The notes below the pieces were generated by a model. That model was not told the DNA's origin. It saw only the letters and a program-made list of their open reading frames with translations, and did no database searches. Shown here one piece after another: positions 17,769-49,746 of a stretch of 64,000 bases of DNA. Made by a program: the position numbers and the translations under genes. The stretch comes from Pseudomonadota bacterium (GTDB taxonomy: Bacteria; Pseudomonadota; Alphaproteobacteria; Micavibrionales; UBA2020), in contig JAJZVA010000006.1 of the NCBI GenBank assembly GCA_021845905.1, positions 74,264 through 138,263 on the forward strand. Reading direction: 5' to 3'. Every line of letters starts with the position of its first letter. The stretch's first letter is position 1.

Positions 17769-17806
17769 ACTAAACTCCTTCTAATTGTTATGCTTACGGA
17801 GCGCCG

Positions 17807-29815: not shown

Positions 29816-29948
29816 CGCGGTGCGAGGATCGGCCAGTAGACCGCCGTTCCGATGACGACGATGATCATGATGATAACAACACGAAAGGTCACCATCATGT
29901 TGGCGGGCAGGCCGAGCACACAACGGCTACTGCAAAAGAAAGGCCGTC

Positions 29949-30869
29949 TTAAGCGGCGGCCCTCTCCTCGGCTTGGGATTCTGCGGTCTCCGCCTTCGGC
30001 TGCAAGCTGTGCAAGAAGGCGGCGGCGCGTTCGGCGTGGGCGGCGGCGGTGAAGACAGCCCGCTTGTCGTTCTTCAGTACGCGCAACCAGTTCTCAACGT
30101 AGCTGGCATGATCAGCGCGGGGTTCCGGTGTCAGAGCGAGGTCGGCACAGAGAAACGCACTGCCGAGTTCCGCCACCAGTTCCTCGGCGGCGTAAGCTTC
30201 ATCTCCCCAGCGTTTGCGGCCAAACTCGCGGGCAAGGCGCTTTTCGTGTTTCGTGGCGTGCGTGCATTCGTGCGCCAAAGTGGCGTAATAGCTTTCCGCA
30301 TCCCTGAACGTCTCGAACGGCGGCATCTGCACAACGTCGCGGCCTTCGGCGTAGAAAGCCCGGTCTCCACCATGCCGGATGTCGATTCCGGTCGCGGCAA
30401 AGAAGGCTTCCGCGTGGGCGATGCGCTGCACGGGATCGATCGTCGGCGCGGCGGGTGCCGTGAAGTGCGGCGGCAGATTGTCGATCTGCTCCGCGTTAAA
30501 CACGGTGTAGCCTTTGAGGAAGGGGATTTCGCGCTCGGTATCTTCTCCGTTCTCGGTCGTCTCGGTGCGCGTGATCTTGCTTGCGAACACGACAAGCTCG
30601 CCATGCTCTCCCTTGCGCACCTGCGCCCCGAGTTCCCGCGCTTGTTTATAGGTCAACCAAGTCGGCGAGACGTAACCGGATGCGGTAGCCGTCATCCAAA
30701 GCGTAATGACGTTGATTCCGCGATAGGGGATTCCGTTGTGGCGTAACGGGCGGGTGATGCGTCCTGCGGCATGTTCTGCGTTCCAAGGTTTCACCCAAGG
30801 ACGGGTGCCCGTCTCCAGTTCCGCCACGATGCGGTTGGTGATTCGCGTGTAGATGTCTTGCTTTTCCAT
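29949..30869 (-). CDS. ardC: ArdC-like antirestriction protein (ssDNA-binding N-domain + zincin peptidase)
   Basis: MEKQDIYTRITNRIVAELETGTRPWVKPWN; C-terminal HECTHAT; start at 30869, the track's upstream extension is not credible. Confidence 0.8.
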   Translation of the reverse strand: MEKQDIYTRITNRIVAELETGTRPWVKPWNAEHAAGRITRPLRHNGIPYRGINVITLWMTATASGYVSPTWLTYKQARELGAQVRKGEHGELVVFASKITRTETTENGEDTEREIPFLKGYTVFNAEQIDNLPPHFTAPAAPTIDPVQRIAHAEAFFAATGIDIRHGGDRAFYAEGRDVVQMPPFETFRDAESYYATLAHECTHATKHEKRLAREFGRKRWGDEAYAAEELVAELGSAFLCADLALTPEPRADHASYVENWLRVLKNDKRAVFTAAAHAERAAAFLHSLQPKAETAESQAEERAAA

Positions 30870-31239
30870 GATCTGCCTTCCTTTCCGGGCTTGGGGTTCA
30901 GCGCGCGTCTGAACCCTTGCCCGTCGGCGAGACCGGGGTGTGCAAGCGGAAAGGGGCTTCGCGGGGAACCGGCTGCACGGAGCCGGCGCCGCTTCGCGCG
31001 GGCGGAGGAAGCTGGGCGGAAGCCCCTTGCAGCGCGCTGAGGGGCAGCGCCCCTTCCATGTCCTTTTGCAAGTAATATTTCGTGCGTCAGCACACCGCAT
31101 AAAAATGCCGTGCTGAAATGGGGTTTTTGTGTTTCTGTTGGGTCGGAAGCAGGGCGGCGATGGCGACGGTCGATCAAACTTCCATACGCGGGTCAAAAAC
31201 CGCATGAATGCGTGTCGTCTTGGGCCTACCTCGGACTAA

Positions 31240-32640
31240 GTGCGAGCATCGGCATTGTGCCTGCTCATAGGGGCCTCGAGGATTGCCTGAACCGTCCGCC
31301 CTGCCCCCGGCCAAACAGGCCAGGAGTCGAAGATGCCTATGGCATCACCGGTTTCACTTCCTGGCCAATCGCCCATATGAATCCGGATAGTTCTCGCGCG
31401 ATAGCGGTAACCACCACTGTTGGCTTCTTGTTTTTGGCCGTCAGTTTCCGGTAGCGGTCGCAGAGACGAGTCTGAGCCTTCCAGGCGATATCTCGTACCA
31501 CCTTGGGCAACTCCATGATGATTGCGACCTTGCCTGTAGCGACGCGGGCTGGATAGCGATAGCTCCACGACGCTTCAACAAGCATCCGTCTGGCTTCAAG
31601 GTTTCCCGTTTTTGTGATGCCGCTGCGATGGATGCGCGCACCGCTGGAATGTTCCGAAGGGACGAGACCAAGATAAGCCATGAGCTGGCGGGGATTCTCG
31701 AAACGGGTCAGGTCGCCGGTCGCGGCCACGAAAGTGACGGCGGAGATAAGATCAATCCCGCGCAAGCCTCGGAGAGCTTCGACAAGTGGCGCGAGAGACC
31801 AGCCCGAAGTCAACGCAACAATCCGTTCGACGAGTCGATCCCGCCGCTCCTGACCTGCAGCGACAGCTTCGACGTAATCCTGAAAAACGATTTGATGCGC
31901 CGGCTGATCAAACGTCTGGCTGGCAAGCCAGAGATAGTGTTTTTTTGTCCAGTGCTTGAGCCCCTGCTGATACGTTCGGCCATGCCGAAGCAAAAATGCA
32001 AGAAGCTGTTGCCTGGCACGCGTCAGGTGCACGACAGCATCCATTCGTGCACGGACGAGATCGCGCATTGCCTCATGCACCTCGTCCGGCACCCAGACCC
32101 GCGTGAGATCGCCTGAGCGATGCAAGATCGCGAGCCGTTGGGAATCTCTCCGGTCAGTCTTGATCTTGTCTCCCGCCATGGTTGGGATTTTTGAAGGCGC
32201 TACCACCATGCAACCATGGCCGAGATCGGTGAGTTGGCGGTAGATAATGTAACCGCAGCACCCGGCTTCGTAACAGAACTCAAGGCGACCGCCGTCTTTT
32301 GAAAGTTGCTTGGTGAGCTTCTCGATGTCATTGGGGGTGTTTGGGATAGCACCGATGAATCTGATCGGGCCGTCTCGACCGTCCTCGGCAACGGTTACCG
32401 AAATGCTTGCCTTGTGAACATCCAACCCAACATAAAACGTCTTTTTCATATACTCTCCATCCATTGAATATTTTTGCGTGCTCTCGGCACGATCACTTCA
32501 ACAGTAGAGAACTGAAGGCAAACGTCTACGGCGCACCCCTTAAGGACATACAGACTAAGCTGCGCGCCATGCGCGCTGAAGGCCGCGTCTGCGGCCGAAA
32601 AACTCACCTTGCCCGAAGGATCGTCACCTCTGGCCGAGAC
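31240..32640 (-). mobile_element. IS110-family insertion sequence (ends approximate)
   Basis: Contains the IS110-type transposase; ~190 nt non-coding upstream of the ATG; no terminal repeats identified, boundaries are guesses. Confidence 0.35.
31337..32449 (-). CDS. IS110-family DEDD transposase
   Basis: MKKTFYVGLDVHKASISVTV... N-terminus, C-terminal SGITKTGN region. Confidence 0.9.
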   Translation of the reverse strand: MKKTFYVGLDVHKASISVTVAEDGRDGPIRFIGAIPNTPNDIEKLTKQLSKDGGRLEFCYEAGCCGYIIYRQLTDLGHGCMVVAPSKIPTMAGDKIKTDRRDSQRLAILHRSGDLTRVWVPDEVHEAMRDLVRARMDAVVHLTRARQQLLAFLLRHGRTYQQGLKHWTKKHYLWLASQTFDQPAHQIVFQDYVEAVAAGQERRDRLVERIVALTSGWSLAPLVEALRGLRGIDLISAVTFVAATGDLTRFENPRQLMAYLGLVPSEHSSGARIHRSGITKTGNLEARRMLVEASWSYRYPARVATGKVAIIMELPKVVRDIAWKAQTRLCDRYRKLTAKNKKPTVVVTAIARELSGFIWAIGQEVKPVMP

Positions 32641-37130: not shown

Positions 37131-37270
37131 CGCGGCTTCCTGCTGCTCGCCGCGTCCATGGCGCGTAAGCCGGAGCCAAAGCCCTCAACGCGGACTTGCT
37201 CATCAAAAGCGCAAAGGGCGGACTCTGCCCACATGGCGCGGTTAAGGTTGGTTATTTTTGGAGAGGTCAT
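37127..37270 (-). CDS. small hypothetical protein (47 aa)
   Basis: MTSPKITNLNRAMWAESALCAFDEQ...; ATGA overlaps at both ends indicate translational coupling. Confidence 0.5.
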   Translation of the reverse strand: MTSPKITNLNRAMWAESALCAFDEQVRVEGFGSGLRAMDAASSRKPR

Positions 37271-37659
37271 TTGGACCTCCTTGCCGCCAGAGTGGCGGCG
37301 GCCTGCAAGAGGGCGGGCCGATCTTCGGTGATGCATTCGGTCCAGCGGGCGGCTTCGGCGTAAACCGACATGGGATGACCGGCAGTGAACGACAGGTCGC
37401 GTTCAACGGGCAACCCGAGCTTGCCGCGAAGGGAACGGAGTTCGTCGAGGCTGACGCAGCCGAGTTCGGGGAAACGAAGGCCGAGGTCGCAGAGACCGAA
37501 GGCGATGTCCGGCTCTTCCGGATCGATCTCAGAGAGAAGCCAGGTACAGCCGGCGTCCGGCGTAAAGAGTTTCACGACCGGCGGATGGTCCTGATCGCGA
37601 TTTCGTCCATTGGCGAGCAACTGCTCGAACTGCGCTTTGGTGAAAAGGTTCATGTTCAT
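37267..37659 (-). CDS. DUF2958 domain protein
   Basis: KLFTPDAGCTWLLSEIDPEEPDIAFGLCDLGLRFPELGCVSLDEL. Confidence 0.8.
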   Translation of the reverse strand: MNMNLFTKAQFEQLLANGRNRDQDHPPVVKLFTPDAGCTWLLSEIDPEEPDIAFGLCDLGLRFPELGCVSLDELRSLRGKLGLPVERDLSFTAGHPMSVYAEAARWTECITEDRPALLQAAATLAARRSK

Positions 37660-37790: not shown

Positions 37791-38186
37791 GCGGCTGGCA
37801 CGGTCGCTAGACACTGCCGTTCGGGGGACGGCAAGCACGGAGAGAAGTTGAACCGCCAAAGCGAAGACAGTGCTACACGCTATCGCACGATCAAAACGGC
37901 CTGAAATGCCTCCGCAGCTTTCGCCGTGGCGGCGCGCGACGCAGGAACATTGACCGAAGCTGCGGCGCGCCCGGCGGCGCCGGCGATGGCGGGGGCGGCG
38001 CTGGCGGCGGAGGAGGTTTCGCGAGAAGGCGCTCGATTGCTGCAATCGCCACGGCGATCCTGCGCTGCGCCAATGCCAGCATGCGCAGCATGGTTCCGGT
38101 CAAAAACCGGGAACCCCAATTGGAAAGCGCGGCAACCTTTCTGGTGAGGAAGCGGCTCGGCTTTGATTGCAGGAAGCGCGAACCGC

Positions 38187-39701
38187 TTAGCGTACACGTG
38201 GTGGCGGATCGGGTCCGTCCCTGCTTCGCCCATGTTCGTCCTTGAGCTGTTGTTCGAGGCGACGGCGCTCCTCGATCTCGGCGAGGAGTCTTACGGCGGC
38301 TTCGTGCTCGCGCAAATACCGGTCGCGTTCCTGCTCGTATTTGGCGTCGTGTTCGCGGCGCTGTTGTTCGTGGCGTTCGGTCAGCTCGGCGAGGTCACTT
38401 GCCCGTTCGGCCTTGAGGCGCGCGACCCGGTCAGCGCGTTCCTCTTTCTGTCGGCGCAAGAAGGCGTCCTTCGCGTCTTTGCGGTCGCGGGCTTTGTCGG
38501 CCATTAGTTGCGGATTGAGTCTTTCTTTGATCGCTTCGATGAAAGCGGCGATGCCGGTCTTTGCCCGATAGGTGTCCCGGAAAAACTGCTCCCTCGCCGC
38601 CTGTTGCAGGGCGTCGAAGTGACCGAGCTTCTCCCGGGCTTCCTCTGTGAGGACCCGCGCCGTCTGTTTGTATTCAGCCTCTTGCCGGAGGCGCATCTGG
38701 CGGCCTTCCTCCGCATGGCGCTCCTTCAACGCGGTTTCAAGGGCGGCGATTTCTTCCTTGGTGGGGTCTTGCTTGGCGGGGCTGTCCGGCGCGGGGCTTT
38801 CCGACGGTGACGGTGGCGGTTGGGGCGCGGGCTGTTGGTGAGCTTCAGGGCTCTCTGGCGGGGCTTTCTCCGGCTCCGGTTTCCGGGCGCGCTCGTCCTG
38901 AAGCGCCTTGGCCTGATCGATGGTCGGGATCACGTTCCGGTCGATGTCGGCCATGAATTCCCGCAGCTCTTTGGCGTTCACGCCTTTGATCTGCCGGGCG
39001 AGGCTATAGACCTGGTGATGTTCGTCCACGATCACGTAATCGCGGCGGTCGCCCCTGGCGAGGACGTAGCCCTTTTCTTCAAGGGCCGCCTTGAAAGCCT
39101 GTCCATTGTCGGATTGCTCATAGAGCGCGGTGATGGCGGCTTTGAATTCCCGCGGGTCGATGCCGGTGCGTTCGCCCTGCTGCCATTCGGCGTGGTTGAA
39201 TTCCTGCCGCGGGAACTCCGGCTGCTTCTCCCGATCGCGTTTGGCGTGCTTGCCGGGAACGTGCTCGTGCCCGAATTCCTTTTCGAGGGCCATGCTCGCC
39301 CGCTCGTGGGCAAGGTAGTTCCAACTGTCGGAGCGCAGCGTCATCGTGTCGATGTCGGTGCGCTGCCAGACGACGTGGATGTGCTCGCGCCCGTGCTTTT
39401 CATGGAGGACGACGGCGCGGGGCTGGTCTTCCAGGCCAAGCTCTTTTTCGAGGACTTCGACGGAGCGCTGCCACTGCTCGGGCGTCATGGCGTAGTCGCC
39501 GTGCGGGTCGATGTTGGCGTGATAGAGCCCCCGGCTCCCCAGAGTGCCTTCGGTCAGAAACTGCCAGTCGCGAAAGCTCTCCTTGAGGCTGTCGTGCGGG
39601 GACTGGATTTCGAGGATTTTGACGCGCTCATTGGTGTCGGTGCGGAGAAGATGGCGGGCGAGCTGGTCAGGGCTGCCGCGGCTGCTACCCTTGATGATCA
39701 T
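38187..39701 (-). CDS. relaxase/mobilization nuclease (MobA/VirD2 family)
   Basis: MIIKGSSRGSPDQLARHLL..., HGREHIHVVW His motif; long coiled-coil C-terminus. Confidence 0.85.
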   Translation of the reverse strand: MIIKGSSRGSPDQLARHLLRTDTNERVKILEIQSPHDSLKESFRDWQFLTEGTLGSRGLYHANIDPHGDYAMTPEQWQRSVEVLEKELGLEDQPRAVVLHEKHGREHIHVVWQRTDIDTMTLRSDSWNYLAHERASMALEKEFGHEHVPGKHAKRDREKQPEFPRQEFNHAEWQQGERTGIDPREFKAAITALYEQSDNGQAFKAALEEKGYVLARGDRRDYVIVDEHHQVYSLARQIKGVNAKELREFMADIDRNVIPTIDQAKALQDERARKPEPEKAPPESPEAHQQPAPQPPPSPSESPAPDSPAKQDPTKEEIAALETALKERHAEEGRQMRLRQEAEYKQTARVLTEEAREKLGHFDALQQAAREQFFRDTYRAKTGIAAFIEAIKERLNPQLMADKARDRKDAKDAFLRRQKEERADRVARLKAERASDLAELTERHEQQRREHDAKYEQERDRYLREHEAAVRLLAEIEERRRLEQQLKDEHGRSRDGPDPPPRVR

Positions 39702-40071
39702 CAGACCCCTCCCCGGCGGGTTTCATGCCGAGGGCGGTGAAGATGGCGTCGCGGATCATGCGATAGGCGGCCAGTGCCTCCTTGATTTCAGGGAGGGGGA
39801 CGGTTTCGCCCTGGTTCAGCCGGCGGGCGATCTGGTTGATGTTGTTGCCGATGCGCCCGCACTCGCCGAGGAGCTGCCGCAGGGTCCGATGGTCGGCGGT
39901 GGGCCGGCGCCTGGCGCGGGGGCCGGCATCGCCGAAGGCGGCGGCCCGCATGAAAGCGCCCGCGGCCATGCCGCTGCGGGAGGACAGGGTTTCAAGGGCG
40001 GCGCGCTCGTCTTTGGTCAGACGGACGGTGACAGTCTCGCCCCGCTGTCGTTTGTCGCTCCCGCTCGTCAT
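39685..40071 (-). CDS. mobC: MobC-family relaxosome accessory protein
   Basis: VRLTKDERAALETLSSRSGM... and GRIGNNINQIARRLN. Confidence 0.85.
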   Translation of the reverse strand: MTSGSDKRQRGETVTVRLTKDERAALETLSSRSGMAAGAFMRAAAFGDAGPRARRRPTADHRTLRQLLGECGRIGNNINQIARRLNQGETVPLPEIKEALAAYRMIRDAIFTALGMKPAGEGSDDHQG

Positions 40072-40180
40072 TCCACCCCTCTTGCGTGCGTCGGCACGCG
40101 GGTTTCAAGGGGCCTGTCTTGGCGGGGCCGGCGCGGTGGGACCGGCTCTCCCGGGCGGTTCTTGTCTGCCGCCCCGCAGC

Positions 40181-40572
40181 CAAGGGCGCAAAATGCCCCT
40201 GGTCGTCGCCGGGGCCGAAATCCCCGGTCATGGGTTCCATAGGGAGCACGAAGGCTCCCTTGGTCGGTGCCGGGGCCGAAACCCCGGTCAGAGTGCAGGG
40301 GCTCGAAGGCCGCCTGCTCGTGGGTGCCGGGACGCGAAAGTCCTGGCGAGTGGTCAAGGGCGCGATAGCCCTTGTCAGGGTCCAGGGCGGAACGCCCCGG
40401 CCATGGGTTCCTTAAGGGAGCACGGAGGCTCCCTTGGTCGGGTCCAGGGCGGAAGCCCGGTCTGGTCCAGGACGAAGTGCCTGGTCTGGGTCCACGGGGC
40501 GAAGCGCCCTGGTCCTGGGGATGCAACGGGGGTGGACAACCCCCTTGCCAAGCCGCGCGGTGTGACCGCGCA
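40181..40572. repeat. ladder of at least 10 short GC-rich hairpins punctuated by (T)GGTC, upstream of mobC
   Basis: e.g. CCGGGG-CCGAAAT-CCCCGG, AGGGAGC-ACGAAG-GCTCCCT, CAAGGGC-GCGATA-GCCCTTG, AAGGGAGC-ACGGAG-GCTCCCTT; ~39-nt direct repeat at 40229 and 40402. Confidence 0.7.
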
Positions 40573-41040
40573 TGGCTTGCACTTCACGATATCAGGATAT
40601 CACGAGTTTCCTTAATGTGGGATTAAGAAAGTCCGGTTTGCGGTGGGAGGCCTCGGCTAACGCCGATTCTCCCGATTCGATATGTAAATTATACCACGCA
40701 CGGCAGAGTTCGGGGACAATGCTTTGAGACGGAAGCTCATCGGGCTTCCGGCACGGCCCTATCGGGCCGTCCCGCAATCCTTGGCATAGGGCACATAGCA
40801 GGTTTGAAGCAGAGTGCCAGGCTTGAGACCTGTATGGCCGAGGTCGGAAATGACCTGTCTCCGATCGAGAACGGGGGCCACGTCGAGCCCGCCGCCGCCG
40901 GTTTCGAGAACCGACGGCGGCGTCATTGTTTTTTTCAGGAAAAACAATGAGTTATATGGATGACCTTTGAGAATTAACCGATAAATCAGTGGGTTATGAG
41001 ATAATCAAGAATAAGAGCAAAACCCGAGAATGGAGCGGGC

Positions 41041-41520
41041 ATGACGGTCTGGATGCCCGTTGGGGACGGGTTCATTGAAGCGGATGTAATCCGATGGACG
41101 GAGCCGGTGTATAGGGACCGGCTGCGTGGAAAACCTGTCCGGGTCGGTAAGCGGCTGGTGACGGCGGAGGTCCTGGAGGCGGACAAAGACGGCTGGACCC
41201 ATCTGCTGGTGCGTGGCGCCAAGGCGGTATCGGCGAACTTCGGCTGGAACCTCCGCGACGTTCTAGTCCCACCCAAAGACGAAGAAACAAAACGGAAACG
41301 GACGACCATTACCAGAGGCGGTGCCGAGCGGCTGCTGTGGAGCGATGAGAGCGCCCGCGCCCTCGTCGCCAGCCGGTTCCTGAACGAACGAGACACGGCC
41401 CCGCCAGTGTCCACCGCCAAGCTCCGTCGTCCATCCCGACCCGCCCGTCATTCCTCTTCCGGGAAACACAAGAGGCGCATTCGCGATACCGGATGGAAAC
41501 CGCCTCGCCCGCGATTTTGA
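41041..41520 (+). CDS. hypothetical protein, paralog of 4688..5020
   Basis: GGAG RBS; conserved N-terminal and RLLWS blocks shared with the small element; basic C-terminal tail. Confidence 0.6.
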   Translation: MTVWMPVGDGFIEADVIRWTEPVYRDRLRGKPVRVGKRLVTAEVLEADKDGWTHLLVRGAKAVSANFGWNLRDVLVPPKDEETKRKRTTITRGGAERLLWSDESARALVASRFLNERDTAPPVSTAKLRRPSRPARHSSSGKHKRRIRDTGWKPPRPRF

Positions 41521-41711: not shown

Positions 41712-44700
41712 TCACGTCCTGACCTCTTCCGGCCCGGGAATGTCGGCGGCGACGAGTTGCTTTAGGTCCTCTATTCCTACGTCATGCGCATCCGCCAGCC
41801 TCGTCGCCTGTCGTTCCATGCAGACTTCGAAGAGATTGCGCACCGCGCGACCGTTGCCGAACCCCTTGCCACGCCCTGTATAGAGCGCATGGATAGTTTT
41901 CTTGAGCTTCGGGGGCGCCTTTCCGGTCAGCTCCATGCCGTTCCGGGCACAAAGCCCCCGGAAAATCTCCATCAAGTCTGACGGTTCATAGTCGGGGAAA
42001 TCGATGAACGTCTTGAAGCGCGATTTGAGGCCGGGGTTGCTGTCCACGAAACCCTGCATTTCTTCGCGATAGCCCGCCGCGATGACCACGAGACGGTCCC
42101 GGTAATCCTCCATGAATTTGAGCAGCGCCGTAACGGCCTCGATCCCGAAATCGTTGTTCGAGTCTGACGAAATCAGGCTGTAGGCTTCGTCGATAAACAG
42201 CACGCCGTCCAGGGCCTGCTCCACGGCCTCCGCAACCTTGGGCGCGGTCTGGCCGATATATTCCGCCACCAGATCGCCCCGGCTTACCTCGATACAATGG
42301 CCTTTTTTCAGGACCCCAAGATCGCGATAAATCCGGCCGATGATGCGCGCGACCGTCGTCTTGCCCGTGCCGGGGTTGCCCGTAAAAACCAGATGGTTCG
42401 ACCTCTCGGGCACCGGCAAGCCTGCCTTCCGCCGTGCCTGGTTGACTTTCTCCAGATTGGCGACGGTTTCGACCTGCTTTTTGACGGGCGCGAGACCGGT
42501 CAGTCCGCGCAGGTCCGCGAAGGGGTCTTGCTTCGTCTCGACCGGAGCGGGCGCTGCCGGTTGCTTTTCTCGGGGCGGCTTCGGCGGAGGCGATGACGGT
42601 TGCGGTGGCGGTTGCGGCGGTTTCTGCTGCCCTTTGCTGAAATAAGGATTCTCGTCGTACTGAAGCGGCGGCGCCTTACCCATGTTGTACGGATACATAT
42701 GCTTGAGATGATCGTAGGCACGATCGAGATTCCAGTAGTCGATGGGTCTGAGATACTCCGGCAAACCGCGCGGGTTGAGCAGGATTGCCACGTCCCGCCC
42801 GAGATTGAGAATCTCGTCGGGCATCAGCAGCGGGCGTGCCATCTCGCCGAAGTTGGTGCTTTCCCCGGATGTGGCGCCGCCCTTGGTCTCGCCGGAGGAC
42901 ATGGATGTCGCCACGGTGCGCACGGTCGCCTTGCCGAGGCTCTCGCTGAGATATTTGGCGGTGTCGAGTTCGTTGACGAAACAGAACCACTTGAAGGCGC
43001 AATTGCTGAGGATCGTTCCGCTGGAATCGCCGTAGTGATCCTTGAGCTGGTCGAGCCCCTGCACGATCAGCGTGAAGTCGAGCCCGTAGCCGCTCATCAG
43101 CGCGATATCGCGCGGAATGTCGTCGATGCGCCCGATGGAGCCGAACTCGTCTATCAGGAACATGCAGCGACGGCGCGGCACGCTTGTGGCCTTGTGGCTT
43201 TTCATGCCCTGCATGGCGGAGGCGATGACCAGCCGGAGCCAGGTGGCGTGGGTTTGAATCCGGTCGTGCGGGATGACGAGATAGACGGTGGTCGCTTCCT
43301 CCCGGAGCTTCTTCATCGAAAACGAAGACGAGGCCGTCGATTGCTTGATCTGCGGGTCCGACAGGAACTTGGTGTTCTCTGCCAGGTTCGACATGATCCC
43401 GCTGTAGGTTTCCGGCGCGAGGTCGATGTACTGGCTGACCATCTCGCTGACCGCGCCGTGGTAAGCGGTTGAAGCCGTCATCTTGACCAGAATCTTGAGA
43501 AACTCGGCCCGGCTCATGGTCACGATCTGACGGGCGCGGGCGAGGGTCTTTTGTTCGCCCGGCGCGTCGGCGATCCAGAGAAAGACGCCCGCGAGCACGT
43601 TGGCCGCGCTCCCCTGCCAGAACGACTCCTTGCCTGTCGCGGGCGGGCAGATGATTGCCGCGAGCGATTGGGCGAAGGCGACGGCGTTGGGATCGTTGCG
43701 GTCGAGCGCGTCGAGCGGGTTGAAAGTCGCCCTGGCGAAGCCAAGGCTCCGGTAACGGCTCTCCATTTCTCCCCACGGGTTGACGATATGGACCGTCTGC
43801 TTATGCCGGTTGCGGCGCGTGCGCGCCGTGATCGCCGCGTTCTCGCCTTTGGGGTCGATGACCAGCATCGAGCCTGTGTAATTCAACAAGGTCGGCACGA
43901 TAACGCGGGTGCCCTTGCCCGCCCGCGTGCGGGCCACGATCAGCGTATGTGTTTCCGGCGATGACGTGACGGGGGCGCCGGGAGCATCGGCAGGGATGTC
44001 AGGTCTGCTGCTTTTACCGAAGTTGACGCCCTGGAACATATTCTCCCCGCGACGCTCCACGATCCGATGTTCGGCCCAGTCGGCGGTGCCGTAGTTGTCG
44101 CTCAGCGGCGGAAGGGAATCGTCCGGCTCTTCTTCACGTCTCAACATCAGCCACCCAAAAAACCCGATCACGAACGCGCCGCCACCGTAAACCAGAACGT
44201 AAGCGCTTGCGGTGATCCAGGGATTCGGCTTGACCGAAGACCCCGCGTTCGCGGAAGAAACGGGGTTCTGGCCCCGTCTTTGCGCCTCACTCTCCCAATT
44301 GACCTGCGCCGCCACGTATTCCGGCGCAAAGTAGCGCCCGAGCACGTCACGCATAAAATCCGTGTTGGCGCTGTAGGCGTATTCCTTCTCGAAAAACTGC
44401 GGCCGGATGCAGCTCTTGCCGGAACAATTCCCGTCGTTGAATTTGAGGCCATAGGGTTTCTCGCCGAAGGCGCGGGAGTATTCCCGAAACTTGGCGGCGG
44501 CGCGGGGCGGCATCGACCTGATGTCCAGGGCGCCGGTCCAAACCTGAATCGCGTTGCGGAGGATTTCGAAAGCTGCGGCCTGCCGTGCGGCCGTATCGAT
44601 TTCGTTCGAACCCCGGACGTCCCTGAACACTTGCGCGACCGTGGGAGCATGGGCGATCCATCCGTCGCTCATGGCTGCGGCGCGGCAGGTGGCCGGCACA

Positions 44701-44747
44701 GGAGCAAGCGCCAGAGCGAAAGACAGACAGAGCAGACGAAAGCGCAT
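41712..44747 (-). CDS. VirD4/TraG-type coupling protein fused to a C-terminal CbbX/SpoVK-like AAA+ module
   Basis: Signal-like MRFRLLCLSFALALAPVPATC (start 44747; track start 44855), TM segment, IVARTRAGKGTRVIVPTLL Walker A, Pro-rich linker, then VFTGNPGTGKTTVARIIGRIY...GVLFIDEAYSL. Confidence 0.8.
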   Translation of the reverse strand: MRFRLLCLSFALALAPVPATCRAAAMSDGWIAHAPTVAQVFRDVRGSNEIDTAARQAAAFEILRNAIQVWTGALDIRSMPPRAAAKFREYSRAFGEKPYGLKFNDGNCSGKSCIRPQFFEKEYAYSANTDFMRDVLGRYFAPEYVAAQVNWESEAQRRGQNPVSSANAGSSVKPNPWITASAYVLVYGGGAFVIGFFGWLMLRREEEPDDSLPPLSDNYGTADWAEHRIVERRGENMFQGVNFGKSSRPDIPADAPGAPVTSSPETHTLIVARTRAGKGTRVIVPTLLNYTGSMLVIDPKGENAAITARTRRNRHKQTVHIVNPWGEMESRYRSLGFARATFNPLDALDRNDPNAVAFAQSLAAIICPPATGKESFWQGSAANVLAGVFLWIADAPGEQKTLARARQIVTMSRAEFLKILVKMTASTAYHGAVSEMVSQYIDLAPETYSGIMSNLAENTKFLSDPQIKQSTASSSFSMKKLREEATTVYLVIPHDRIQTHATWLRLVIASAMQGMKSHKATSVPRRRCMFLIDEFGSIGRIDDIPRDIALMSGYGLDFTLIVQGLDQLKDHYGDSSGTILSNCAFKWFCFVNELDTAKYLSESLGKATVRTVATSMSSGETKGGATSGESTNFGEMARPLLMPDEILNLGRDVAILLNPRGLPEYLRPIDYWNLDRAYDHLKHMYPYNMGKAPPLQYDENPYFSKGQQKPPQPPPQPSSPPPKPPREKQPAAPAPVETKQDPFADLRGLTGLAPVKKQVETVANLEKVNQARRKAGLPVPERSNHLVFTGNPGTGKTTVARIIGRIYRDLGVLKKGHCIEVSRGDLVAEYIGQTAPKVAEAVEQALDGVLFIDEAYSLISSDSNNDFGIEAVTALLKFMEDYRDRLVVIAAGYREEMQGFVDSNPGLKSRFKTFIDFPDYEPSDLMEIFRGLCARNGMELTGKAPPKLKKTIHALYTGRGKGFGNGRAVRNLFEVCMERQATRLADAHDVGIEDLKQLVAADIPGPEEVRT

Positions 44748-45173
44748 CTGAATCAGTCCCCGGGGCATCGCCACAGGCGGCTCGATGGCAGACAAGGCCG
44801 AAAGCTCTGTAGTCCGTCCGACGCCAGAAGCGATAGTGCTGCGGAAGTATTGCATACGCCAGTCCCTGAACCTCTGAAAAAAGCGCGTTGGAGACCTGCC
44901 GCTTTGATTGTGTCCGCGCGGTAATGATTCAAATCCATGATCTCCCCCCCTTTTCAGGGAGCCCCGATTCCGGACTTCGATGGTGCAGCGTTAGCACCGG
45001 CGCGCCTTTGGGCGCTGCAAGCTTGTTGCCAAGCTCCTTCTCTTCGTTGCGGTCCACTCATGTTGCGCATGCACAGCATGGTGGATGCAGCTCAAGGCGG
45101 CCGTCGCTCTCCACGGCTGCGTGAAGTCCGCGATCGGCGCGGGCAGAAGAAAAGGAGAGACACCATGAGAGTC

Positions 45174-45443: not shown

Positions 45444-45950
45444 TCACGCGCAACGATAAACAAGCCGCGTTCCGGCAATGGTCGTTTCGCTGTAGTCCAT
45501 GCCGAGGTCACGGGCGATGGCGTCATAGTCGAGATAATTGCGGATGGGTTCGGGGATTTCTCCGAACAGTCCTTCATCGACAAATTGCTCGGCGAGTTCG
45601 CGCAGGCTGTCTATTTGATAAAGATCAACGTCGAAGTCGTCCGGATCGCCGGAAGCCAGGTCGAAGCGGTATCCGCATTCGCCGACGGCGATGATGACTT
45701 TCTGCTTCTGATTATCGTCCCACGCGTCGCAGGCGTCCAGAAATTGCGGGAAGTTGCCTTGGTTGACGCCGAGCGCCTCGAACAGCTTCGCGTCGATGCT
45801 TTCGCCGTCGATGAATTGCAGTTCAAATCCCTCCACGGGGCAGCCAGCGGAATTGCGTAGCTTCGCGGCTTTCTCCGCGTATTCGGACGCGGTTCGGAAG
45901 TAGAAGCCCGTGGCGCTGATGTCGTAAGGTTGTGCGAATAATTCGGTCAT
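45444..45950 (-). CDS. ardA: ArdA-family antirestriction protein
   Basis: Acidic 168-aa protein; family recognised from overall pattern incl. MTELFAQPYDISATGFYF N-terminus. Confidence 0.75.
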   Translation of the reverse strand: MTELFAQPYDISATGFYFRTASEYAEKAAKLRNSAGCPVEGFELQFIDGESIDAKLFEALGVNQGNFPQFLDACDAWDDNQKQKVIIAVGECGYRFDLASGDPDDFDVDLYQIDSLRELAEQFVDEGLFGEIPEPIRNYLDYDAIARDLGMDYSETTIAGTRLVYRCA

Positions 45951-46512: not shown

Positions 46513-48330
46513 TTACCGGAGGATGTCCGGCAACCAGCCCGTGCCGGCGATTTCACGCTCAGCAAGTGCGGCCAGCTCGGCCTTCTTGAGCTTGTCCCAT
46601 GCGGGCGCAACCGGCTGCTTGCGCGCGTCTGTCAGGGCATCGAGGATTTGCGGTTTGCTGATGCGGCTGAAATATCCCTCGGCCGTCGGGGTGAACCACG
46701 CCTTCATGTCGAGCTTGACCGCGACGGAGAGTTTACTGGCATGGTCCAGTCTCGGGCAGTCCGGACGATCCGTCTTGCGCTGCACGGCATTGACCATGCA
46801 GGCCGCGCAGAATGTCAGGAGATCGAGTAACACGGACTGATCCTGCTCCAGACACCAGTTCCAGAGATCATCCGGAGTACCGGGGATACGTTGGCCCCAG
46901 GATTCACGGGCTCGTTCAAGACGCTGGAAAGCAGTCGAGCCTTCGACAAGATTCAGCGGCTGCGTTTTGCCGGAAAGTTCAAGGGCCGTAGCGTGTCCTT
47001 GATCGAATGTGTCCAGCACAAGGGCGTACACGATCGTGGCAAGACCTTTGTCCGGTGCGTCCAGCAAGGTTGCGGCAAGCGCTGCCGACCTATGGGCGGT
47101 CAGGCTCTCGACCAGCGCCGCCGACAATCCGGGAGTCTCCGCTTCAACGGCTGCGGTATCCGCATCGCCGGGAACGCCAGAGACTTTTGCCTTTTTGGAC
47201 TGTTTCGGCATGTCCTCCGGCTTCACAAAACCGCGCTCGATCTTCACCTTGCCGGCGTGATCGAGGGATACCACGGTGCCCGCGATCGCAAGCTGTTCCG
47301 GCGTCCAGACGCCGTCGCGGTCTTCGATGTCGGCGATGAGCTTCTCCAGCTCGTCGAGACGTTCCGGCGCTTCGCCCGCGTCGGATGCGTACCACGCGTC
47401 ATTCAGGGCGGTGTATTCCGCCTGAAGGCTGTCGAACCGTTGCTGTTCGTCTTCGGTCAGGGGAACGGGCTCGGGATAGATACGCCTGTAAGCGGAACTT
47501 TGCGCGTATCCGAACTCGGGCATGACTTCGATCCATTTCCAGCCCTCGGCGCGGACCGGCTTGGCCTTCTTCTCAAGCTTCTCCGTCACAAGGCTGTCCA
47601 GCAGGGCGGCGTCTTCGATATAGACGCCGTTGTCGTCGTCGCTGAACAGGTCGCGCTTGAGATTGCCACCGGCCTTTTCGTACCCGTTCAGGGTCACGAA
47701 TTTCACGCGCTTGTCGGTTGCGGCGATGTCGTTCTCCGTCAGGGCGTCGCGGATGTCGCGGGCATCGTTGCGTTCGGGGTCGTAATCCGCCAGCACGCGT
47801 TCCTGCGCTTCGTGGTCGTCGGTCACGGCGAAGGCCATGACGCATTCCAGCGTCAGGTCGCCGTCCCGGTACGCCTTGATGATGCTCGGGCTGACACGGG
47901 CCAGTTTCAGGAGCTTCTGGACGTGGGCCTCGCTGCATCCGAAACGGGCGGCAATATCCGCAGCCGGCATACCGTCATCGGTCAGGGAACGGAACGCCTC
48001 GAACTGGTCGGCGGGGTGCATGTCTTCCCGCATGACGTTCTCGGCCAGGCTCAATTCCGTTGCGTTGTCGGCCGCCGTGATGCGGCATGGCACCGGAAAT
48101 GTCGCCTGTAGATCACCGGTCTTGGCGAGTTGCTGCAAGGCTTTCAGGCGTCTGCCGCCGGCGACGACGGCGAACTTCTTGCCGTCCTTGCGGACGACGA
48201 GATTTTGCTGAAGGCCGTGGGCTTTGATGCTGGCGGCCAGCGCGTCGATGCCGTCCTTGTTCCGGATTTTCCGAACGTTGCCGGACCAGACGGTCAGCTT
48301 GTTGAGCGGTACATTTATAATGTCGGTCAT
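46513..48330 (-). CDS. ParB/Srx N-terminal domain protein
   Basis: VPLNKLTVWSGNVRKIRNKDGIDALAASIKAHGLQQNLVV ParB-type N-domain; 605 aa. Confidence 0.75.
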   Translation of the reverse strand: MTDIINVPLNKLTVWSGNVRKIRNKDGIDALAASIKAHGLQQNLVVRKDGKKFAVVAGGRRLKALQQLAKTGDLQATFPVPCRITAADNATELSLAENVMREDMHPADQFEAFRSLTDDGMPAADIAARFGCSEAHVQKLLKLARVSPSIIKAYRDGDLTLECVMAFAVTDDHEAQERVLADYDPERNDARDIRDALTENDIAATDKRVKFVTLNGYEKAGGNLKRDLFSDDDNGVYIEDAALLDSLVTEKLEKKAKPVRAEGWKWIEVMPEFGYAQSSAYRRIYPEPVPLTEDEQQRFDSLQAEYTALNDAWYASDAGEAPERLDELEKLIADIEDRDGVWTPEQLAIAGTVVSLDHAGKVKIERGFVKPEDMPKQSKKAKVSGVPGDADTAAVEAETPGLSAALVESLTAHRSAALAATLLDAPDKGLATIVYALVLDTFDQGHATALELSGKTQPLNLVEGSTAFQRLERARESWGQRIPGTPDDLWNWCLEQDQSVLLDLLTFCAACMVNAVQRKTDRPDCPRLDHASKLSVAVKLDMKAWFTPTAEGYFSRISKPQILDALTDARKQPVAPAWDKLKKAELAALAEREIAGTGWLPDILR

Positions 48331-48730: not shown

Positions 48731-49244
48731 GCGCATGGCAGGGGGCTCGAACATGCACGAAGGGTGGATGCAAATAGCGGAAGGAGATGATGTGCTGACA
48801 ACGCCGGAGAACCACGGCTCGCAAACAGGAACGCGTCATCATTCCTGAGAAGAACGGACGCGCGGAAAAGACCGTTTGATCACCCGTTCGCTCCACCACG
48901 GCAGATTAGGTGAACCGATCCCGTAGATCGCATCCGTCAACGTTGCGGCCTCCGGCAAGCAGCCGCGCAACCTCGTTTGGATACGGAAGGGAATGTCGAT
49001 AACGGGTGTGCTCACACTTCCGAAAGGAAAGCTCGGCGGCGCCCCCACAGCGCAACGCCCGAGCTGCTGATTGTCAAATGAGGAAAATGTCGAACCCGGG
49101 AATCGTCCGATCCGTGTTCGACGCGGCACGCGCAACGGTCCCGTAGCTTTATCGTGCCTGTCGCCGTTAGGCCGTTCGGCCCGGCTCCGGAGCGCCGTCC
49201 AGCGCTCCCGACAACTTGAAGATTCTCAAGCAGGGAAAGGAAGA

Positions 49245-49558
49245 TGGTGCGGGCGGCCGGACTTGAACCGGCACAGGCCTTTCGGCCCTACGGATTTTCA
49301 TACCACTACGGCTTTCGCCGCGTTCGCCGCTGCGCCTCTCGGCACAGGACGCTTTGTGGTCTGGACTATCCCTTCACCATAGCCGTTGCTTTAGGTGCTG
49401 CCCGTCTAGTCTCTACACCTTCCCGTTTCCGGGCTTGGCTCGGGATTGCCATGTGAAAGGTTTCCCCGACTTTGAGCAGTTCTGCATCGCGGGTTTCCCC
49501 GCGCGCACTCAATTTTCTGGTTTAAGTCCGTTGCGTCTACCAATTTCGCCACGCCCGC
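49245..49558 (-). tRNA. tRNA-Leu(UAA) interrupted by a group I intron (exons 49558-49524 and 49298-49245)
   Basis: 5' exon GCGGGCG-TG-GCGAAATTGGTAGACGC-A-ACGGA-CTT; 3' exon AAAA-TCCGT-AGGGCCGAAAGGCCTGT-GCCGGTTCAAGTCCGGC-CGCCCGC-A-CCA. Confidence 0.85.
49299..49523 (-). ncRNA. group I intron (225 nt, no ORF) between U34 and A35
   Basis: Shares TCGGGGAAACCTTTCACATGGCAATCCCGAGCCAAGCCC and GGGAAGGTGTAGAGACTAGACGGGCAGC with the 6715-6945 intron; GAAGGGATAGTCCAG; ends ...GGTATG. Confidence 0.8.
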
Positions 49559-49746
49559 GTGGTACATCCACCTATAGCCGCAACCCACTTAACAACCAAG
49601 AAAAATCGAGCATTTCTGCGGATTCCGGCATTACGGAAAGGCAGGGTAGCAGCCTTCGCCGCCTGAGGTTTTGGCTAGCATAACACAATAGGAGTCGTAC
49701 CTGCTCGGCGCGCAGACGCCGATGCGGCACGCCTGTACGCGTCCGC

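What the first reader, a model, noticed from the sequence alone, without database searches (positions are those of the whole stretch)
40181..40572. ~400-nt ladder of GC-rich mini-hairpins upstream of mobC
At least ten 5-8 bp stems with purine-rich loops follow one another every 20-35 nt, separated by recurring (T)GGTC. Examples are CCGGGG-CCGAAAT-CCCCGG, AGGGAGC-ACGAAG-GCTCCCT, CCGGGAC-GCGAAA-GTCCTGG and CAAGGGC-GCGATA-GCCCTTG. A ~39-nt unit (catgggttcc.ta.gggagcacg.aggctcccttggtcgg) is repeated at 40229 and 40402.

Every reading frame is open here, which is a GC-composition effect. Nothing protein-like or CRISPR-like is present. The position between mobC/relaxase and the rest of the element fits an oriT accessory region, iterons, a priming signal on the transferred strand, or a structured RNA.
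Basis: seen in the sequence. Interest (0 to 1): 0.6.

Follow-up and report, generated by a model that had tools for sequence, protein, structure and literature searches.

The report
Polar DNA mini-hairpin array beside oriT
Next to the transfer origin of a mobilizable genomic island lies a one-strand-specific row of about a dozen very stable small DNA hairpins, conserved in most of the ~90 related elements examined, which most likely marks where the transferred single strand is primed for copying.

Summary
Window 40180-40512 holds 12 GC-rich mini-hairpins. They are followed by a conserved oriT core: a hairpin (40523-40548), a nested inverted repeat (40549-40579) and the invariant CATGGCTTGC.

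The window has 14 short hairpins against 5.1±1.7 in shuffles, and 13 GGTC against 4.8±1.8.

The ladder fills the mobC-to-oriT spacer (76-904 nt) in about 70 of 76 usable loci from Alphaproteobacteria, Acidobacteriota and metagenomes. Stems differ and co-vary. Loops and spacers are conserved and strictly polar:
- Motif hairpins: 123 on the window + orientation, 0 on the other, about 100-fold above flanks.
- GGTC:GACC is 441:37.
- GAA:TTC in loops is 265:30.

Eight of the 12 window hairpins carry a C-GNA-G or C-GNNA-G "mini-hairpin DNA" top. This motif is known from the phage G4 complementary-strand origin, RSF1010 ssiA and N4 promoters.

Best reading (about 0.4): the array folds in single-stranded + strand DNA, the inferred transferred strand, at its last-entering end. 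There it acts as an SSB-excluding priming zone, like a single-strand origin.

Rivals are a double-stranded MobC binding array, a termination or protection aid, and an mRNA leader. The nick site and strand are inferred, not shown.

I found no description of this array. It looks like a new variant of a known kind.

The parts
38187..39701 (-). Relaxase (MobA/VirD2-type nuclease domain, 504 aa)
   Evidence: Pfam PF03432, E 3.9e-15. Only weak matches to NCBIfam TraI/MobA(P). No solved relative found by sequence.
39685..40071 (-). mobC: ribbon-helix-helix relaxosome accessory protein (NikA-like/MobC)
   Evidence: Pfam PF21983 and PF05713.
40084..40099 (.). Small conserved hairpin GCGTGC-GTCG-GCACGC, about 12 nt from the mobC start codon, just upstream of its ribosome-binding site. 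It leaves little room for a promoter between the ladder and mobC.
   Evidence: Sequence. Variants that keep the pairing occur in L005, L008 and L080.
40180..40512 (+). Hairpin ladder of 12 mini-hairpins: H1 40180-40202, H2 40209-40227, H3 40241-40260, H4 40270-40287, H5 40295-40317, H6 40326-40347, H7 40355-40374, H8 40382-40400, H9 40415-40434, H10 40444-40460, H11 40467-40484, H12 40492-40512. Stems are 5-9 bp. Loops are mostly RCGAAR-like. Hairpins are punctuated by (T/G)GGTC. Eight of the 12 have a C-GNA-G or C-GNNA-G top.
40229..40267 (+). Copy a of the repeated ~39-nt unit (spacer CATGGGTTCC plus hairpin H3 plus TGGTCGG)
40402..40441 (+). Copy b of the repeated unit (contains H9)
40523..40548 (+). 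oriT core hairpin GCAACGGGGG-TGGACAA-CCCCCTTGC. The flanks GGGGATGCAACGGGG and CCCTTGCCAAGC are nearly invariant in the family.
   Evidence: Alignments.
40549..40580 (+). Nested inverted repeat: outer stem CAAGCC/GGCTTG around inner GCGCGGT-GTG-ACCGCGC, ending in the invariant 10-mer CATGGCTTGC (40571-40580). This is the presumed relaxase/MobC recognition element, with the nick within or 3' of it.
   Evidence: The 10-mer is exact in about 70 of 80 genome loci. The inner stem co-varies, for example GC 26 / AU 16 at one pair.
40584..40605 (.). Nick-region candidate: the 8-nt direct repeats TCACGATA / TCAGGATA / TCACGAG. They contain the family motif T(C/T)AG(G/A)ATA(N)CAC at 40592-40603. The reverse complement reads GTGATATCCTG|A, which resembles the MOBP nick core.
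   Evidence: The resemblance to YATCCTG|Y comes from my own knowledge and was not tested.
40607..40630 (.). Second inverted repeat, TTTCCTTAAT-GTGG-GATTAAGAAA, on the far side of the nick-region motif
41712..44855 (-). Type IV coupling protein with a C-terminal AAA+ module. It points toward oriT.
45444..45950 (-). ArdA anti-restriction gene, 5 kb from oriT on the side opposite the relaxase. It is oriented so that the + strand is its template.
   Evidence: Pfam PF07275. The orientation rule is from PMC11541004.

Best explanation
The ladder is an accessory module of the oriT of a widespread MobC-plus-relaxase family. It works as single-stranded DNA on the window's + strand.

That strand is most likely the transferred strand, nicked just 3' of the conserved inverted repeat. 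The ladder is then the last 100-500 nt to leave the donor and enter the recipient.

Once single-stranded, the region snaps into a row of very stable mini-hairpins, many with GNA or GNNA tops. These keep SSB off and leave the short (T/G)GGTC spacers exposed.

This creates a single-strand initiation zone, functionally a single-strand origin. A primase, probably the host's since no primase gene was found in the island ORFs scanned or annotated in the two related plasmids, starts the complementary strand there. A primer laid down here runs back through mobC and the relaxase gene and copies almost the whole element in one pass.

Shown:
- the anatomy;
- the excess over chance;
- conservation across the family;
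- maintenance of pairing;
- absolute strand polarity;
- restriction of the motif to this spot.

Inferred:
- which strand is nicked and transferred;
- that the hairpins form in vivo;
- that priming, rather than another single-strand function, is the role;
- the identity of the primase.
For: 1. The ladder is a family feature, not a local accident.
- Hairpins fill the mobC-to-core spacer in 76 loci: 707 hairpins against 316 expected from shuffles.
- It is also present beside a 35%-identical relaxase in Bradyrhizobium.
- A ladder unit searched in metagenomes gave 16 hits, all GGTC-rich. Twelve have the same oriT core 108-382 nt away.

2. Pairing is maintained.
- There are 270 distinct 5' stem arms.
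- In sequence-only homologues of the window hairpins, pairs changed on both sides stay complementary 84 times and break 38 times. With the partner slid by one position the figures are 31 and 64.

3. One strand is constrained.
- Hairpins with the hexaloop N[CGT]GA[AT][AG]: 123 in ladders on the + orientation (3.99 per kb), 0 on the - orientation, and 0.03-0.06 per kb in 597 kb of flanks.
- Loops with GAA 265 against TTC 30; CGAA 134 against TTCG 8.
- GGTC 441 against GACC 37; TGGTC 188 against GACCA 3.
- Single stem mismatches: G.T 56 against A.C 29, p=0.0045.

4. The motif class is known from priming sites.
- Eight of 12 window hairpins have C-GNA-G or C-GNNA-G tops, including an exact GCGAAGC, GCGATAGC and GCGGAAGC.
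- Strict GCGNAGC and GCGNNAGC occur 104 times on the + strand against 11 on the - strand of ladders.
- The review PMC13037366 places such mini-hairpins at the primer start of the phage G4, St-1 and alpha3 complementary-strand origins, in RSF1010 ssiA (RepB' primase) and in N4 vRNAP promoters. It reports that they bind SSB poorly.

5. The spacer (T/G)GGTC equals the T7 primase site 5'-(G/T)2GTC-3' (PMC12839067). This shows it is the kind of short signal DnaG-type primases read. It is a lead only.

6. The position matches a single-strand origin. In rolling-circle plasmids the sso lies just upstream of the nick, so it is exposed last (PMC4595007 section 20).

7. The + strand is the likelier transferred strand.
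- Relaxosome genes are typically on the last-entering side of oriT, and leading-region anti-defence genes are oriented to be read from the transferred strand (PMC11541004).
- Here ArdA, the ParB-like gene and the coupling protein lie on the other side of oriT on the - strand.
- In pSREG01 an ArdC-like gene lies about 9 kb from oriT on that same side, in the same orientation.

8. No primase is annotated in the ladder-bearing mobilizable plasmids pSREG01 and pcai42B, and none was found in the window ORFs scanned.

9. Relatives with a conserved MobC but almost no ladder exist: pTF4.1, a Xanthomonas plasmid, L079 and L084. The ladder is therefore not needed for the core nicking complex.
Against: - No experiment exists. 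The nick site and nicked strand are not mapped for any member I could find.
- The oriT core is an almost perfect dyad, so both strands read 'inverted repeat then GGCTTG.CA'. A MOBP-like TATCCTG|A, preceded by its own inverted repeat, lies on the - strand. If the - strand is transferred, the ladder would be the first DNA to enter, and the constrained + strand would be the donor's retained strand.
- Only about 19% of all unique predicted hairpins family-wide (36% of the hexaloop class) have a strict C-GNA-G or C-GNNA-G top.
- Twelve or more priming units seem more than priming needs.
- The primase specificity of these hosts is unknown.
- For integrating elements, an sso upstream of oriT has been argued to be risky (PMC4595007).
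- The ladder is probably also transcribed, in the opposite sense, as the mobC leader. An RNA contribution is therefore not excluded.
- The counts are not phylogenetically independent.
Confidence: 0.4

Rival explanations
1. The ladder is a relaxosome scaffold on duplex DNA. It would be an array of binding sites for MobC (a ribbon-helix-helix protein) or a host protein that bends or melts oriT and autoregulates mobC, like the TraM and TraY sites between nic and traM in F or the MobC operators in RA3.
For: - It occupies exactly the nic-to-first-relaxosome-gene interval where such sites lie in other systems. RA3 oriT also holds many inverted and direct repeats (PMC4175270).
- Conserved short words (GGTC, GGGT) recur as direct repeats.
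- Palindromes suit dimeric binders.
Against: - Stem sequences are highly diverse while complementarity is kept.
- The conserved parts are the loop centres and one-strand-specific words, which a symmetric duplex binder does not explain.
- GGTC spacing is broad (clusters at 6-7, 21-25, 32-36 and 50 nt) with no helical phasing.
- Relatives with well-conserved MobC have no ladder.
Confidence: 0.2
2. The hairpins do form on the transferred strand, but they serve termination or protection rather than priming. They could keep the adjacent inverted repeat and nick correctly folded and free of SSB for the rejoining reaction. They could slow passage so the relaxase can act. They could block 3' exonucleases, or block complementary-strand synthesis.
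For: - The strand polarity, position and stability evidence is the same as for the best explanation.
- Mini-hairpins are nuclease-resistant and bind SSB poorly (PMC13037366).
- A stable single-stranded DNA structure in F acts as a roadblock to complementary-strand synthesis (bioRxiv 10.64898/2026.01.09.698686, abstract).
Against: - It does not explain the conserved GGTC punctuation.
- Ladder-less relatives transfer with the inverted repeat alone. This is inferred from their existence as mobilizable plasmids.
- No precedent is known to me for multi-hairpin termination aids.
Confidence: 0.2
3. The ladder is an RNA leader. It would be transcribed on the - strand as a long structured 5' UTR of the mobC-relaxase mRNA, or as a spacer in a coupling-protein-to-relaxase transcript, controlling mRNA stability or translation.
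For: - There is no room for a promoter between the ladder and mobC in several relatives.
- In RA3 and PromA plasmids the mobC promoter overlaps oriT (PMC4175270).
- RNA folding z-score on the - strand is -5.4.
Against: - The sequence constraints are on the opposite strand: 123 against 0 motif hairpins, GAA not UUC loops, and G.T 56 against A.C 29.
- The - strand loops (YUUCGY) lack the C-G closure of stable UUCG tetraloops.
- No Rfam match at E<=1 and no promoter-like or terminator-like sites.
Confidence: 0.1
4. The ladder is a by-product without its own function. It would be a hairpin minisatellite that expands by slippage or template switching where DNA is repeatedly single-stranded, with units homogenised by duplication.
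For: - Copy number varies from 0 to 17 and the spacer from 76 to 904 nt.
- There is a recent 75-nt internal duplication in the window.
- Modules are shared in mosaic fashion between elements.
Against: - It persists across relaxases only 35-50% identical and across phyla.
- Compensatory changes occur.
- Polarity is absolute.
- The sequence is identical in three independent assemblies, so there is no rapid length instability.
Confidence: 0.1

Closest known systems
G4-type single-strand initiation signals (complementary-strand origins of phages G4, St-1 and alpha3; G-sites of plasmids)
   Same: Hairpins on single-stranded DNA contain the GCGAAAGC/GCGNNAGC mini-hairpin at the primer start. They are SSB-poor and strand-specific. 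In the ladder a short single-stranded motif, (T/G)GGTC, sits beside each hairpin where a primase start word could lie (PMC13037366).
   Different: Those origins have one to three hairpins of fixed sequence in about 140 nt. Here there are 6-17 units of variable stem sequence beside an oriT, with GGTC rather than the E. coli CTG start word. Priming was not tested.
RSF1010/R1162 ssiA and ssiB with RepB' primase
   Same: A GC-rich hairpin with a C-GAA-G top (CCGAAGG), used to prime a strand of a mobilizable broad-host-range plasmid (PMC13037366 and PMC8567376).
   Different: RSF1010 has two 40-nt sites in oriV, one per strand, read by a plasmid-encoded dedicated primase. Here no primase gene was found, all units are on one strand, and they lie at oriT.
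Single-strand origins (sso) of rolling-circle plasmids and ICEBs1 sso1
   Same: A structured single-stranded region lying just upstream of the nick, so it is exposed last. It is needed for second-strand synthesis after rolling-circle replication or conjugation (PMC4595007).
   Different: Known sso types (ssoA, ssoT, ssoU, ssoW) are one large imperfect fold with RNA-polymerase-binding and CS-6 motifs, found in Firmicutes. ICEBs1 sso1 lies downstream of oriT. There is no sequence or architectural similarity to the ladder.
Accessory-protein regions of oriT (F sbmA-C/sbyA; RA3 MobC operators; T-DNA overdrive)
   Same: The same map position, between the nick and the first relaxosome gene on the last-transferred side. 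These regions are rich in repeats (PMC4175270).
   Different: Those are sequence-specific duplex binding sites. The ladder conserves pairing, loop centres and one-strand words instead of stem sequence.
Frpo/ssi single-stranded DNA promoters of plasmid leading regions
   Same: Function depends on a fold of the transferred single strand (PMC11541004).
   Different: Frpo is one long hairpin that rebuilds -35 and -10 boxes, and it lies in the leading region upstream of genes. The ladder has no promoter-like boxes, consists of mini-hairpins and lies on the relaxase side.

Membership tests
Mini-hairpin DNA motif (GCGNAGC / GCGNNAGC; C-GNA-G or C-GNNA-G top) | Sequence motif: a G-C/C-G stem closing a GNA or GNNA loop | tested here: met
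   Eight of 12 window hairpins have it, including exact GCGAAGC, GCGATAGC and GCGGAAGC. Family-wide the strict motifs occur 104 times on the + strand against 11 on the - strand of ladders. However, only 19% of all predicted hairpins have it.
Mini-hairpin DNA motif (GCGNAGC / GCGNNAGC; C-GNA-G or C-GNNA-G top) | Extraordinary thermal stability, nuclease resistance and poor SSB binding of the folded DNA | not testable with these tools
   These properties are reported for model oligonucleotides in PMC13037366. Nearest-neighbour folding does not model them.
G4-type / ssi priming signal | Strand-specific hairpin structure on single-stranded DNA | tested here: met
   Motif hairpins 123 against 0 by strand. 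G.T 56 against A.C 29. Compensatory changes 84 against 38 broken.
G4-type / ssi priming signal | Primase start trinucleotide next to the hairpin | tested here: inconclusive
   (T/G)GGTC follows the hairpins: 114 of 523 have stem end plus flank equal to GGTC, and 193 of 523 have a 3' TC. It equals the T7 primase word. The start word of the relevant host primases is unknown.
G4-type / ssi priming signal | SSB- and primase-dependent primer synthesis on the cloned single strand | not testable with these tools
   Needs an M13 ssi assay or in vitro priming.
sso of rolling-circle replicons | Located upstream of the nick on the displaced strand | tested here: inconclusive
   True if the + strand is nicked. 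That is favoured by gene order and orientation, but the nick is unmapped.
sso of rolling-circle replicons | Conserved ssoA/ssoU-type fold and motifs (RS_B, CS-6) | not tested
   No dedicated motif search was run. The anatomy read (a row of short independent hairpins) differs from the single large imperfect fold I recall for these types, and no promoter-like boxes were found.
oriT (origin of transfer) of a MOBP/MOBQ-like relaxase | Adjacent to the relaxase and accessory genes, with a conserved inverted repeat next to a conserved nick-region sequence | tested here: met
   The core with the invariant CATGGCTTGC and a co-varying inverted repeat is present in about 70 of 80 loci, 76-904 nt from mobC. 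This applies to 40523-40605, not to the ladder itself.
oriT (origin of transfer) of a MOBP/MOBQ-like relaxase | Mapped nick site and demonstrated mobilization | not testable with these tools
   No paper found by sequence words or by gene names.
Iterons / duplex protein-binding repeats | Repeated conserved sequence with regular (helically phased) spacing | tested here: not met
   Stems are diverse, with 270 distinct arms. GGTC spacing is broad and unphased.
Structured RNA family | Match to a described family, or signs of transcription of the constrained strand | tested here: not met
   No Rfam match at gathering score or at E<=1. No promoter-like or terminator-like sites flank it.
REP/BIME-type dispersed palindromes | Many copies dispersed through intergenic regions of the genome, in both orientations | tested here: not met
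   Motif hairpins occur at 0.03-0.06 per kb outside ladders against 3.99 per kb inside, all in one orientation.
CRISPR array | Identical direct repeats separated by unique spacers of constant length | tested here: not met
   No such family appears in the repeat or tandem-repeat output.

The most novel reading that the evidence does not exclude
This may be a previously unrecognised class of conjugative single-strand origin. It would be a polar, modular array of 'hairpin plus GGTC' priming units built from mini-hairpin DNA, placed at the last-transferred end of oriT. It is common in mobilizable islands and plasmids of Alphaproteobacteria and Acidobacteriota. It would let elements without their own primase recruit the recipient's primase, and it would be the first natural tandem array of mini-hairpin DNA.
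Probability: 0.3. Interest if true: 0.75.

Novelty: new variant of a known kind. Interest (0 to 1): 0.6.

Why it matters
How mobilizable elements without a primase get their second strand made in a new host is poorly known outside a few model plasmids. The same is true for what lies between the nick and the relaxosome genes in non-model oriTs.

A conserved, easily recognised, strand-specific signature beside oriT would have three uses:
- It would give a direct computational marker of the transferred strand and the transfer direction for a large family of environmental elements.
- It would offer a simple testable model for host-primase recruitment during conjugation.
- It would provide a natural context for the unusually stable mini-hairpin DNA motif.

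If the array proves dispensable, it is still a useful annotation landmark for this oriT family.

Tried and rejected
- Rfam found nothing in the region, at gathering score on the whole window or at E<=1 on 40000-40750.
- The promoter and terminator scan of 39900-41200 found 0 promoter-like sites and one terminator-like site inside mobC.
- Folding energy does not tell the strands, or DNA from RNA, apart: z is -5.0 to -6.7 in all four cases.
- A global MAFFT/RNAalifold alignment of the 227 nt before the core (A2) recovered only the oriT core pairs. Ladder units are not positionally homologous between elements.
- A small alignment of H6-H7 (A3) was too conserved, and its gaps were not structure-aware, so I did not run pair counts on it. 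I used sequence-only homologue matching with a slid-partner control instead.
- Literature searches by sequence words, by oriT plus GCGAAGC, and by mobZ/mobC/Dtr found no description of this oriT or ladder.
- The RSF1010 record was not in the plasmid collection under NC_001740. The ssiA hairpin is therefore cited from the review only.
- The relaxase has no solved relative by sequence.
- A genome-wide repeat (REP-like) reading was rejected.
- A protein-coding reading of the open frames was rejected: no Pfam match for 39782-40615.
- The resemblance of ladder spacers (CATGGGTTCC) to the invariant core (CATGGCTTGC) was considered as evidence for pseudo-nick sites. I left it as an observation, because the two occupy different structural roles.
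Full report
**What is there**

The interval lies in a 970-bp gap. On one side is mobC (39685-40071, - strand; NikA-like/MobC), followed by a MobA/VirD2-type relaxase (38187-39701, -). On the other side is a small unannotated ORF, followed by a type IV coupling protein (41712-44855, -), ArdA (45444-45950, -) and a ParB-like gene (46513-48330, -).

The wider window is a genomic island. It carries defence cargo, ArdC and an IS110. At one edge it has a tyrosine integrase next to an intron-containing tRNA gene and uvrC.

Reading left to right on the + strand:
- a small hairpin about 12 nt from the mobC start codon, just upstream of its ribosome-binding site (40084-40099);
- twelve mini-hairpins, H1-H12 (40180-40512);
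- a conserved hairpin, GCAACGGGGG...CCCCCTTGC (40523-40548);
- a nested inverted repeat, CAAGCC-GCGCGGT-GTG-ACCGCGC-AT-GGCTTG (40549-40579), ending in CATGGCTTGC;
- three 8-nt direct repeats containing TCAGGATATCAC (40584-40605);
- another inverted repeat (40607-40630).

Yes.

The region holds 14 short hairpins against 5.1±1.7 in dinucleotide shuffles. It holds 13 GGTC against 4.8±1.8 and 7 CGAA against 1.6±1.2. No shuffle out of 1000 reached either value. The ladder contains no GACC.

The same 1.1 kb is base-for-base identical in three independent public assemblies that encode the identical relaxase.

**Comparison with relatives**

BLAST of the gap against plasmids hit only short pieces, in Sphingopyxis pSREG01, Frigidibacter pcai42B and two Acidibrevibacterium plasmids. 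The first two have the same gene order and their own ladders. The Acidibrevibacterium plasmids carry only the core, with neither mob genes nor a ladder.

A profile of the relaxase retrieved 80 genome loci. They are mostly Alphaproteobacteria, with some Acidobacteriota/Terriglobia and other MAGs.

In about 70 of these loci the exact 10-mer CATGGCTTGC lies 76-904 nt beyond the mobC start. The core architecture is shared, and the inner repeat co-varies.

The variable-length spacer is filled with mini-hairpins: 707 against 316 expected, with an excess in almost every locus.

Members with almost no spacer exist:
- the 4.1-kb Acidithiobacillus plasmid pTF4.1;
- L079;
- L084;
- a Xanthomonas conjugative plasmid with a 36%-identical relaxase.

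A Bradyrhizobium plasmid with a 35%-identical relaxase and a different core does have a ladder.

An exact 24-nt ladder unit searched in metagenomes gave 16 hits, all in GGTC-rich context. Twelve have the same core at +108 to +382. Two of the other four are cut by contig ends.

**What is conserved**

Stem sequence is not conserved: there are 270 distinct 5' arms. Pairing is.

I matched the window's hairpins to other loci by sequence alone. Pairs changed on both sides were still complementary 84 times and broken 38 times. With the partner slid by one position the figures were 31 and 64.

The loops and the punctuation are conserved, and only on one strand:
- The modal loop is six bases, R-C-G-A-A-R, usually closed by C-G.
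- GAA occurs in 265 loops and TTC in 30.
- A strict scan (perfect stem of at least 5 bp plus hexaloop N[CGT]GA[AT][AG]) found 123 hairpins in ladders in the window's + orientation and none in the opposite orientation. The rate in 597 kb of flanking DNA was 0.03-0.06 per kb. In the 64-kb window the same scan finds three in the ladder and five elsewhere.
- GGTC outnumbers GACC 441 to 37, and TGGTC outnumbers GACCA 188 to 3.
- Single stem mismatches are G.T 56 times and A.C 29 times.
- About a third of hairpins are bracketed by a T.T mismatch and then a G-C pair, giving the unit GGGT-[hairpin]-TC.
- Spacing between successive GGTC is broad and not helically phased.

**Which molecule folds?**

The constrained strand is the + strand. 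Three points argue against an RNA:
- There is no Rfam match even at E<=1.
- There are no promoter-like sites.
- The only transcript expected here is the mobC leader, which has the opposite sense. In several relatives the ladder starts about 30 nt from the mobC start codon, so the leader probably does run through it. On that strand the loops read YUUCGY, without the C-G closure that makes UUCG loops special.

On the + strand read as DNA, 8 of the 12 window hairpins have a C-GNA-G or C-GNNA-G top. These include exact GCGAAGC, GCGATAGC and GCGGAAGC. Strict GCGNAGC and GCGNNAGC occur 104 times on the + strand of ladders and 11 times on the - strand.

These are the 'mini-hairpin DNA' motifs reviewed in PMC13037366. 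According to that review they are extraordinarily stable, nuclease-resistant and poor SSB binders. It places them at the primer start of the G4, St-1 and alpha3 complementary-strand origins, in RSF1010 ssiA (CCGAAGG, RepB' primase) and in N4 virion RNA polymerase promoters.

The review also notes that in G4 the mini-hairpin is out of register with the longer textbook hairpin. The same two-base register choice is visible here in the hexaloop hairpins.

The caveat is that family-wide only 19% of all predicted hairpins have a strict top (36% of the hexaloop class). Purine-rich GAA-type loops are the more general feature.

**Which strand is transferred?**

This is not shown. The core is nearly a perfect dyad, so each strand reads 'inverted repeat, then GGCTTG.CA'.

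Favouring the + strand:
- Relaxosome genes next to oriT and transcribed away from it are typically on the last-entering side. Leading-region anti-defence genes are oriented to be read from the transferred strand (PMC11541004).
- Here ArdA lies 5 kb away on the non-relaxase side, and every gene there is on the - strand.
- In pSREG01 an ArdC-like gene lies about 9 kb along the same direction in the same orientation.

Favouring the - strand:
- The reverse complement of the family motif reads GTG(N)TATCCTG|A in the window. From my own knowledge this resembles the MOBP nick core YATCCTG|Y, and it is preceded by its own inverted repeat.
- That motif is only loosely conserved, and it lies at a variable distance (about 10-45 nt) from the invariant core.

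I put the + strand at about 0.75.

**Mechanism proposed**

With the + strand transferred, the ladder is the last 100-500 nt before the inverted repeat and nick. This is the position of single-strand origins in rolling-circle plasmids, where the sso is exposed only when displacement is nearly complete (PMC4595007).

A primer made at the ladder is extended toward mobC and the relaxase gene, and onward round the element. One initiation would then copy almost everything.

The unit 'stable hairpin that excludes SSB, plus an adjacent short single-stranded word' is the logic of G4-type signals and of ssiA. The word itself, (T/G)GGTC, is identical to the T7 primase recognition site 5'-(G/T)2GTC-3' (PMC12839067, PMC2910064). 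I treat that as a lead about the type of signal, not as evidence for a particular enzyme.

No primase gene was found in the window ORFs scanned, and none is annotated in pSREG01 or pcai42B. A host primase is therefore the likely reader.

If instead the - strand is transferred, the same + strand array would be the first part of the donor's retained strand to be exposed. It could then prime replacement synthesis in the same direction. The priming idea therefore survives either polarity, but with a different biological meaning.

**Rivals**

- A duplex MobC or host-factor array fits the map position (compare F and RA3). It does not fit the co-varying stems, the one-strand constraints, the unphased spacing or the ladder-less relatives.
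- A non-priming single-strand role uses the same evidence but leaves GGTC unexplained. Candidates are help for the termination reaction, 3'-end protection, or a roadblock like the F single-strand promoter.
- An RNA leader role is contradicted by strand polarity.
- Neutral minisatellite expansion is suggested by the variable copy number and a recent internal duplication. Against it stand persistence across phyla, compensatory change and sequence identity among independent assemblies.

**Novelty and score**

I found no description of this oriT core or of the ladder. The components are known: oriT inverted repeats, priming hairpins and mini-hairpin DNA. The arrangement appears new. It is a polar tandem array of a dozen such hairpins with primase-like punctuation, fixed beside the oriT of a large environmental family.

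I classify it as a new variant of a known kind, with interest 0.6. The function is inferred.

Noticed in passing
window 49240-49560 (-): A tRNA-Leu(UAA)-like gene is interrupted in the anticodon loop by a group I intron (Rfam RF00028, 54.2 bits, at 49342-49533). ARAGORN does not call it. A tyrosine integrase (49747-51069, -) lies directly upstream and uvrC (51746-53608, +) beyond it, so this is probably the island's attachment site.
   Followed up: partly
window 41712-44855 (-): The type IV coupling protein (VirD4/TraG domains, residues about 300-720) is fused to a C-terminal CbbX/SpoVK/EccA-type AAA+ ATPase with lid (residues about 780-1040). This is an unusual architecture for a coupling protein.
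   Followed up: no
window 14093-31205: The island carries defence and anti-defence cargo. It has a DUF1156 / DUF499+HEPN / SNF2-type helicase with NOV_C block (17807-27575, -) and an OLD-like TOPRIM ATPase plus UvrD-type helicase pair (14093-17768, -). It also has AbiEii toxins (5650-6660 and 28808-29815) and ArdC-N plus metallopeptidase (29949-31205, -), followed by an IS110 transposase (31337-32464, -).
   Followed up: no
window 40584-40630: Three 8-nt direct repeats (TCACGATA / TCAGGATA / TCACGAG) occur here. Their reverse complement contains TATCCTG|A, like the MOBP nick core. They are followed by the inverted repeat TTTCCTTAAT-GTGG-GATTAAGAAA. This gives an alternative nick geometry on the - strand.
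   Followed up: partly
L003 3001-3065 (Acidibrevibacterium fodinaquatile plasmids NZ_CP029178 and NZ_CP029179): An orphan copy of the oriT core (GGGGATGCAACGGGG...CCCCTTGCCAA...GCGCGGTATGACCGCGCATGGCTTGC) lies between pqqA and a WGR-domain gene. No mobC, relaxase or ladder is nearby. It may be an oriT that can be mobilized in trans, or a relic.
   Followed up: no
window 40229-40238 and 40402-40411 compared with 40571-40580: The ladder spacer CATGGGTTCC, which follows a hairpin, resembles the invariant core CATGGCTTGC, which follows the inverted repeat. The same spacer (CATGGGTTCC or CATGGGTCGC) recurs 120-145 nt before the core in many loci. Ladder units might be diverged copies of the relaxase-binding hairpin.
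   Followed up: partly
window 40084-40099: The small hairpin GCGTGC-GTCG-GCACGC lies about 12 nt from the mobC start codon, just upstream of its ribosome-binding site. Its pairing is kept with different loops or stems in L005, L008 and L080. It may be a translational or mRNA-stability element of the mobC leader.
   Followed up: no
window 37267-37659 (-) and 37880-38233 (-): Two small genes downstream of the relaxase travel with it in the identical public contigs: a 117-aa protein without a family match and a DUF2958 protein. Their roles are unknown.
   Followed up: no
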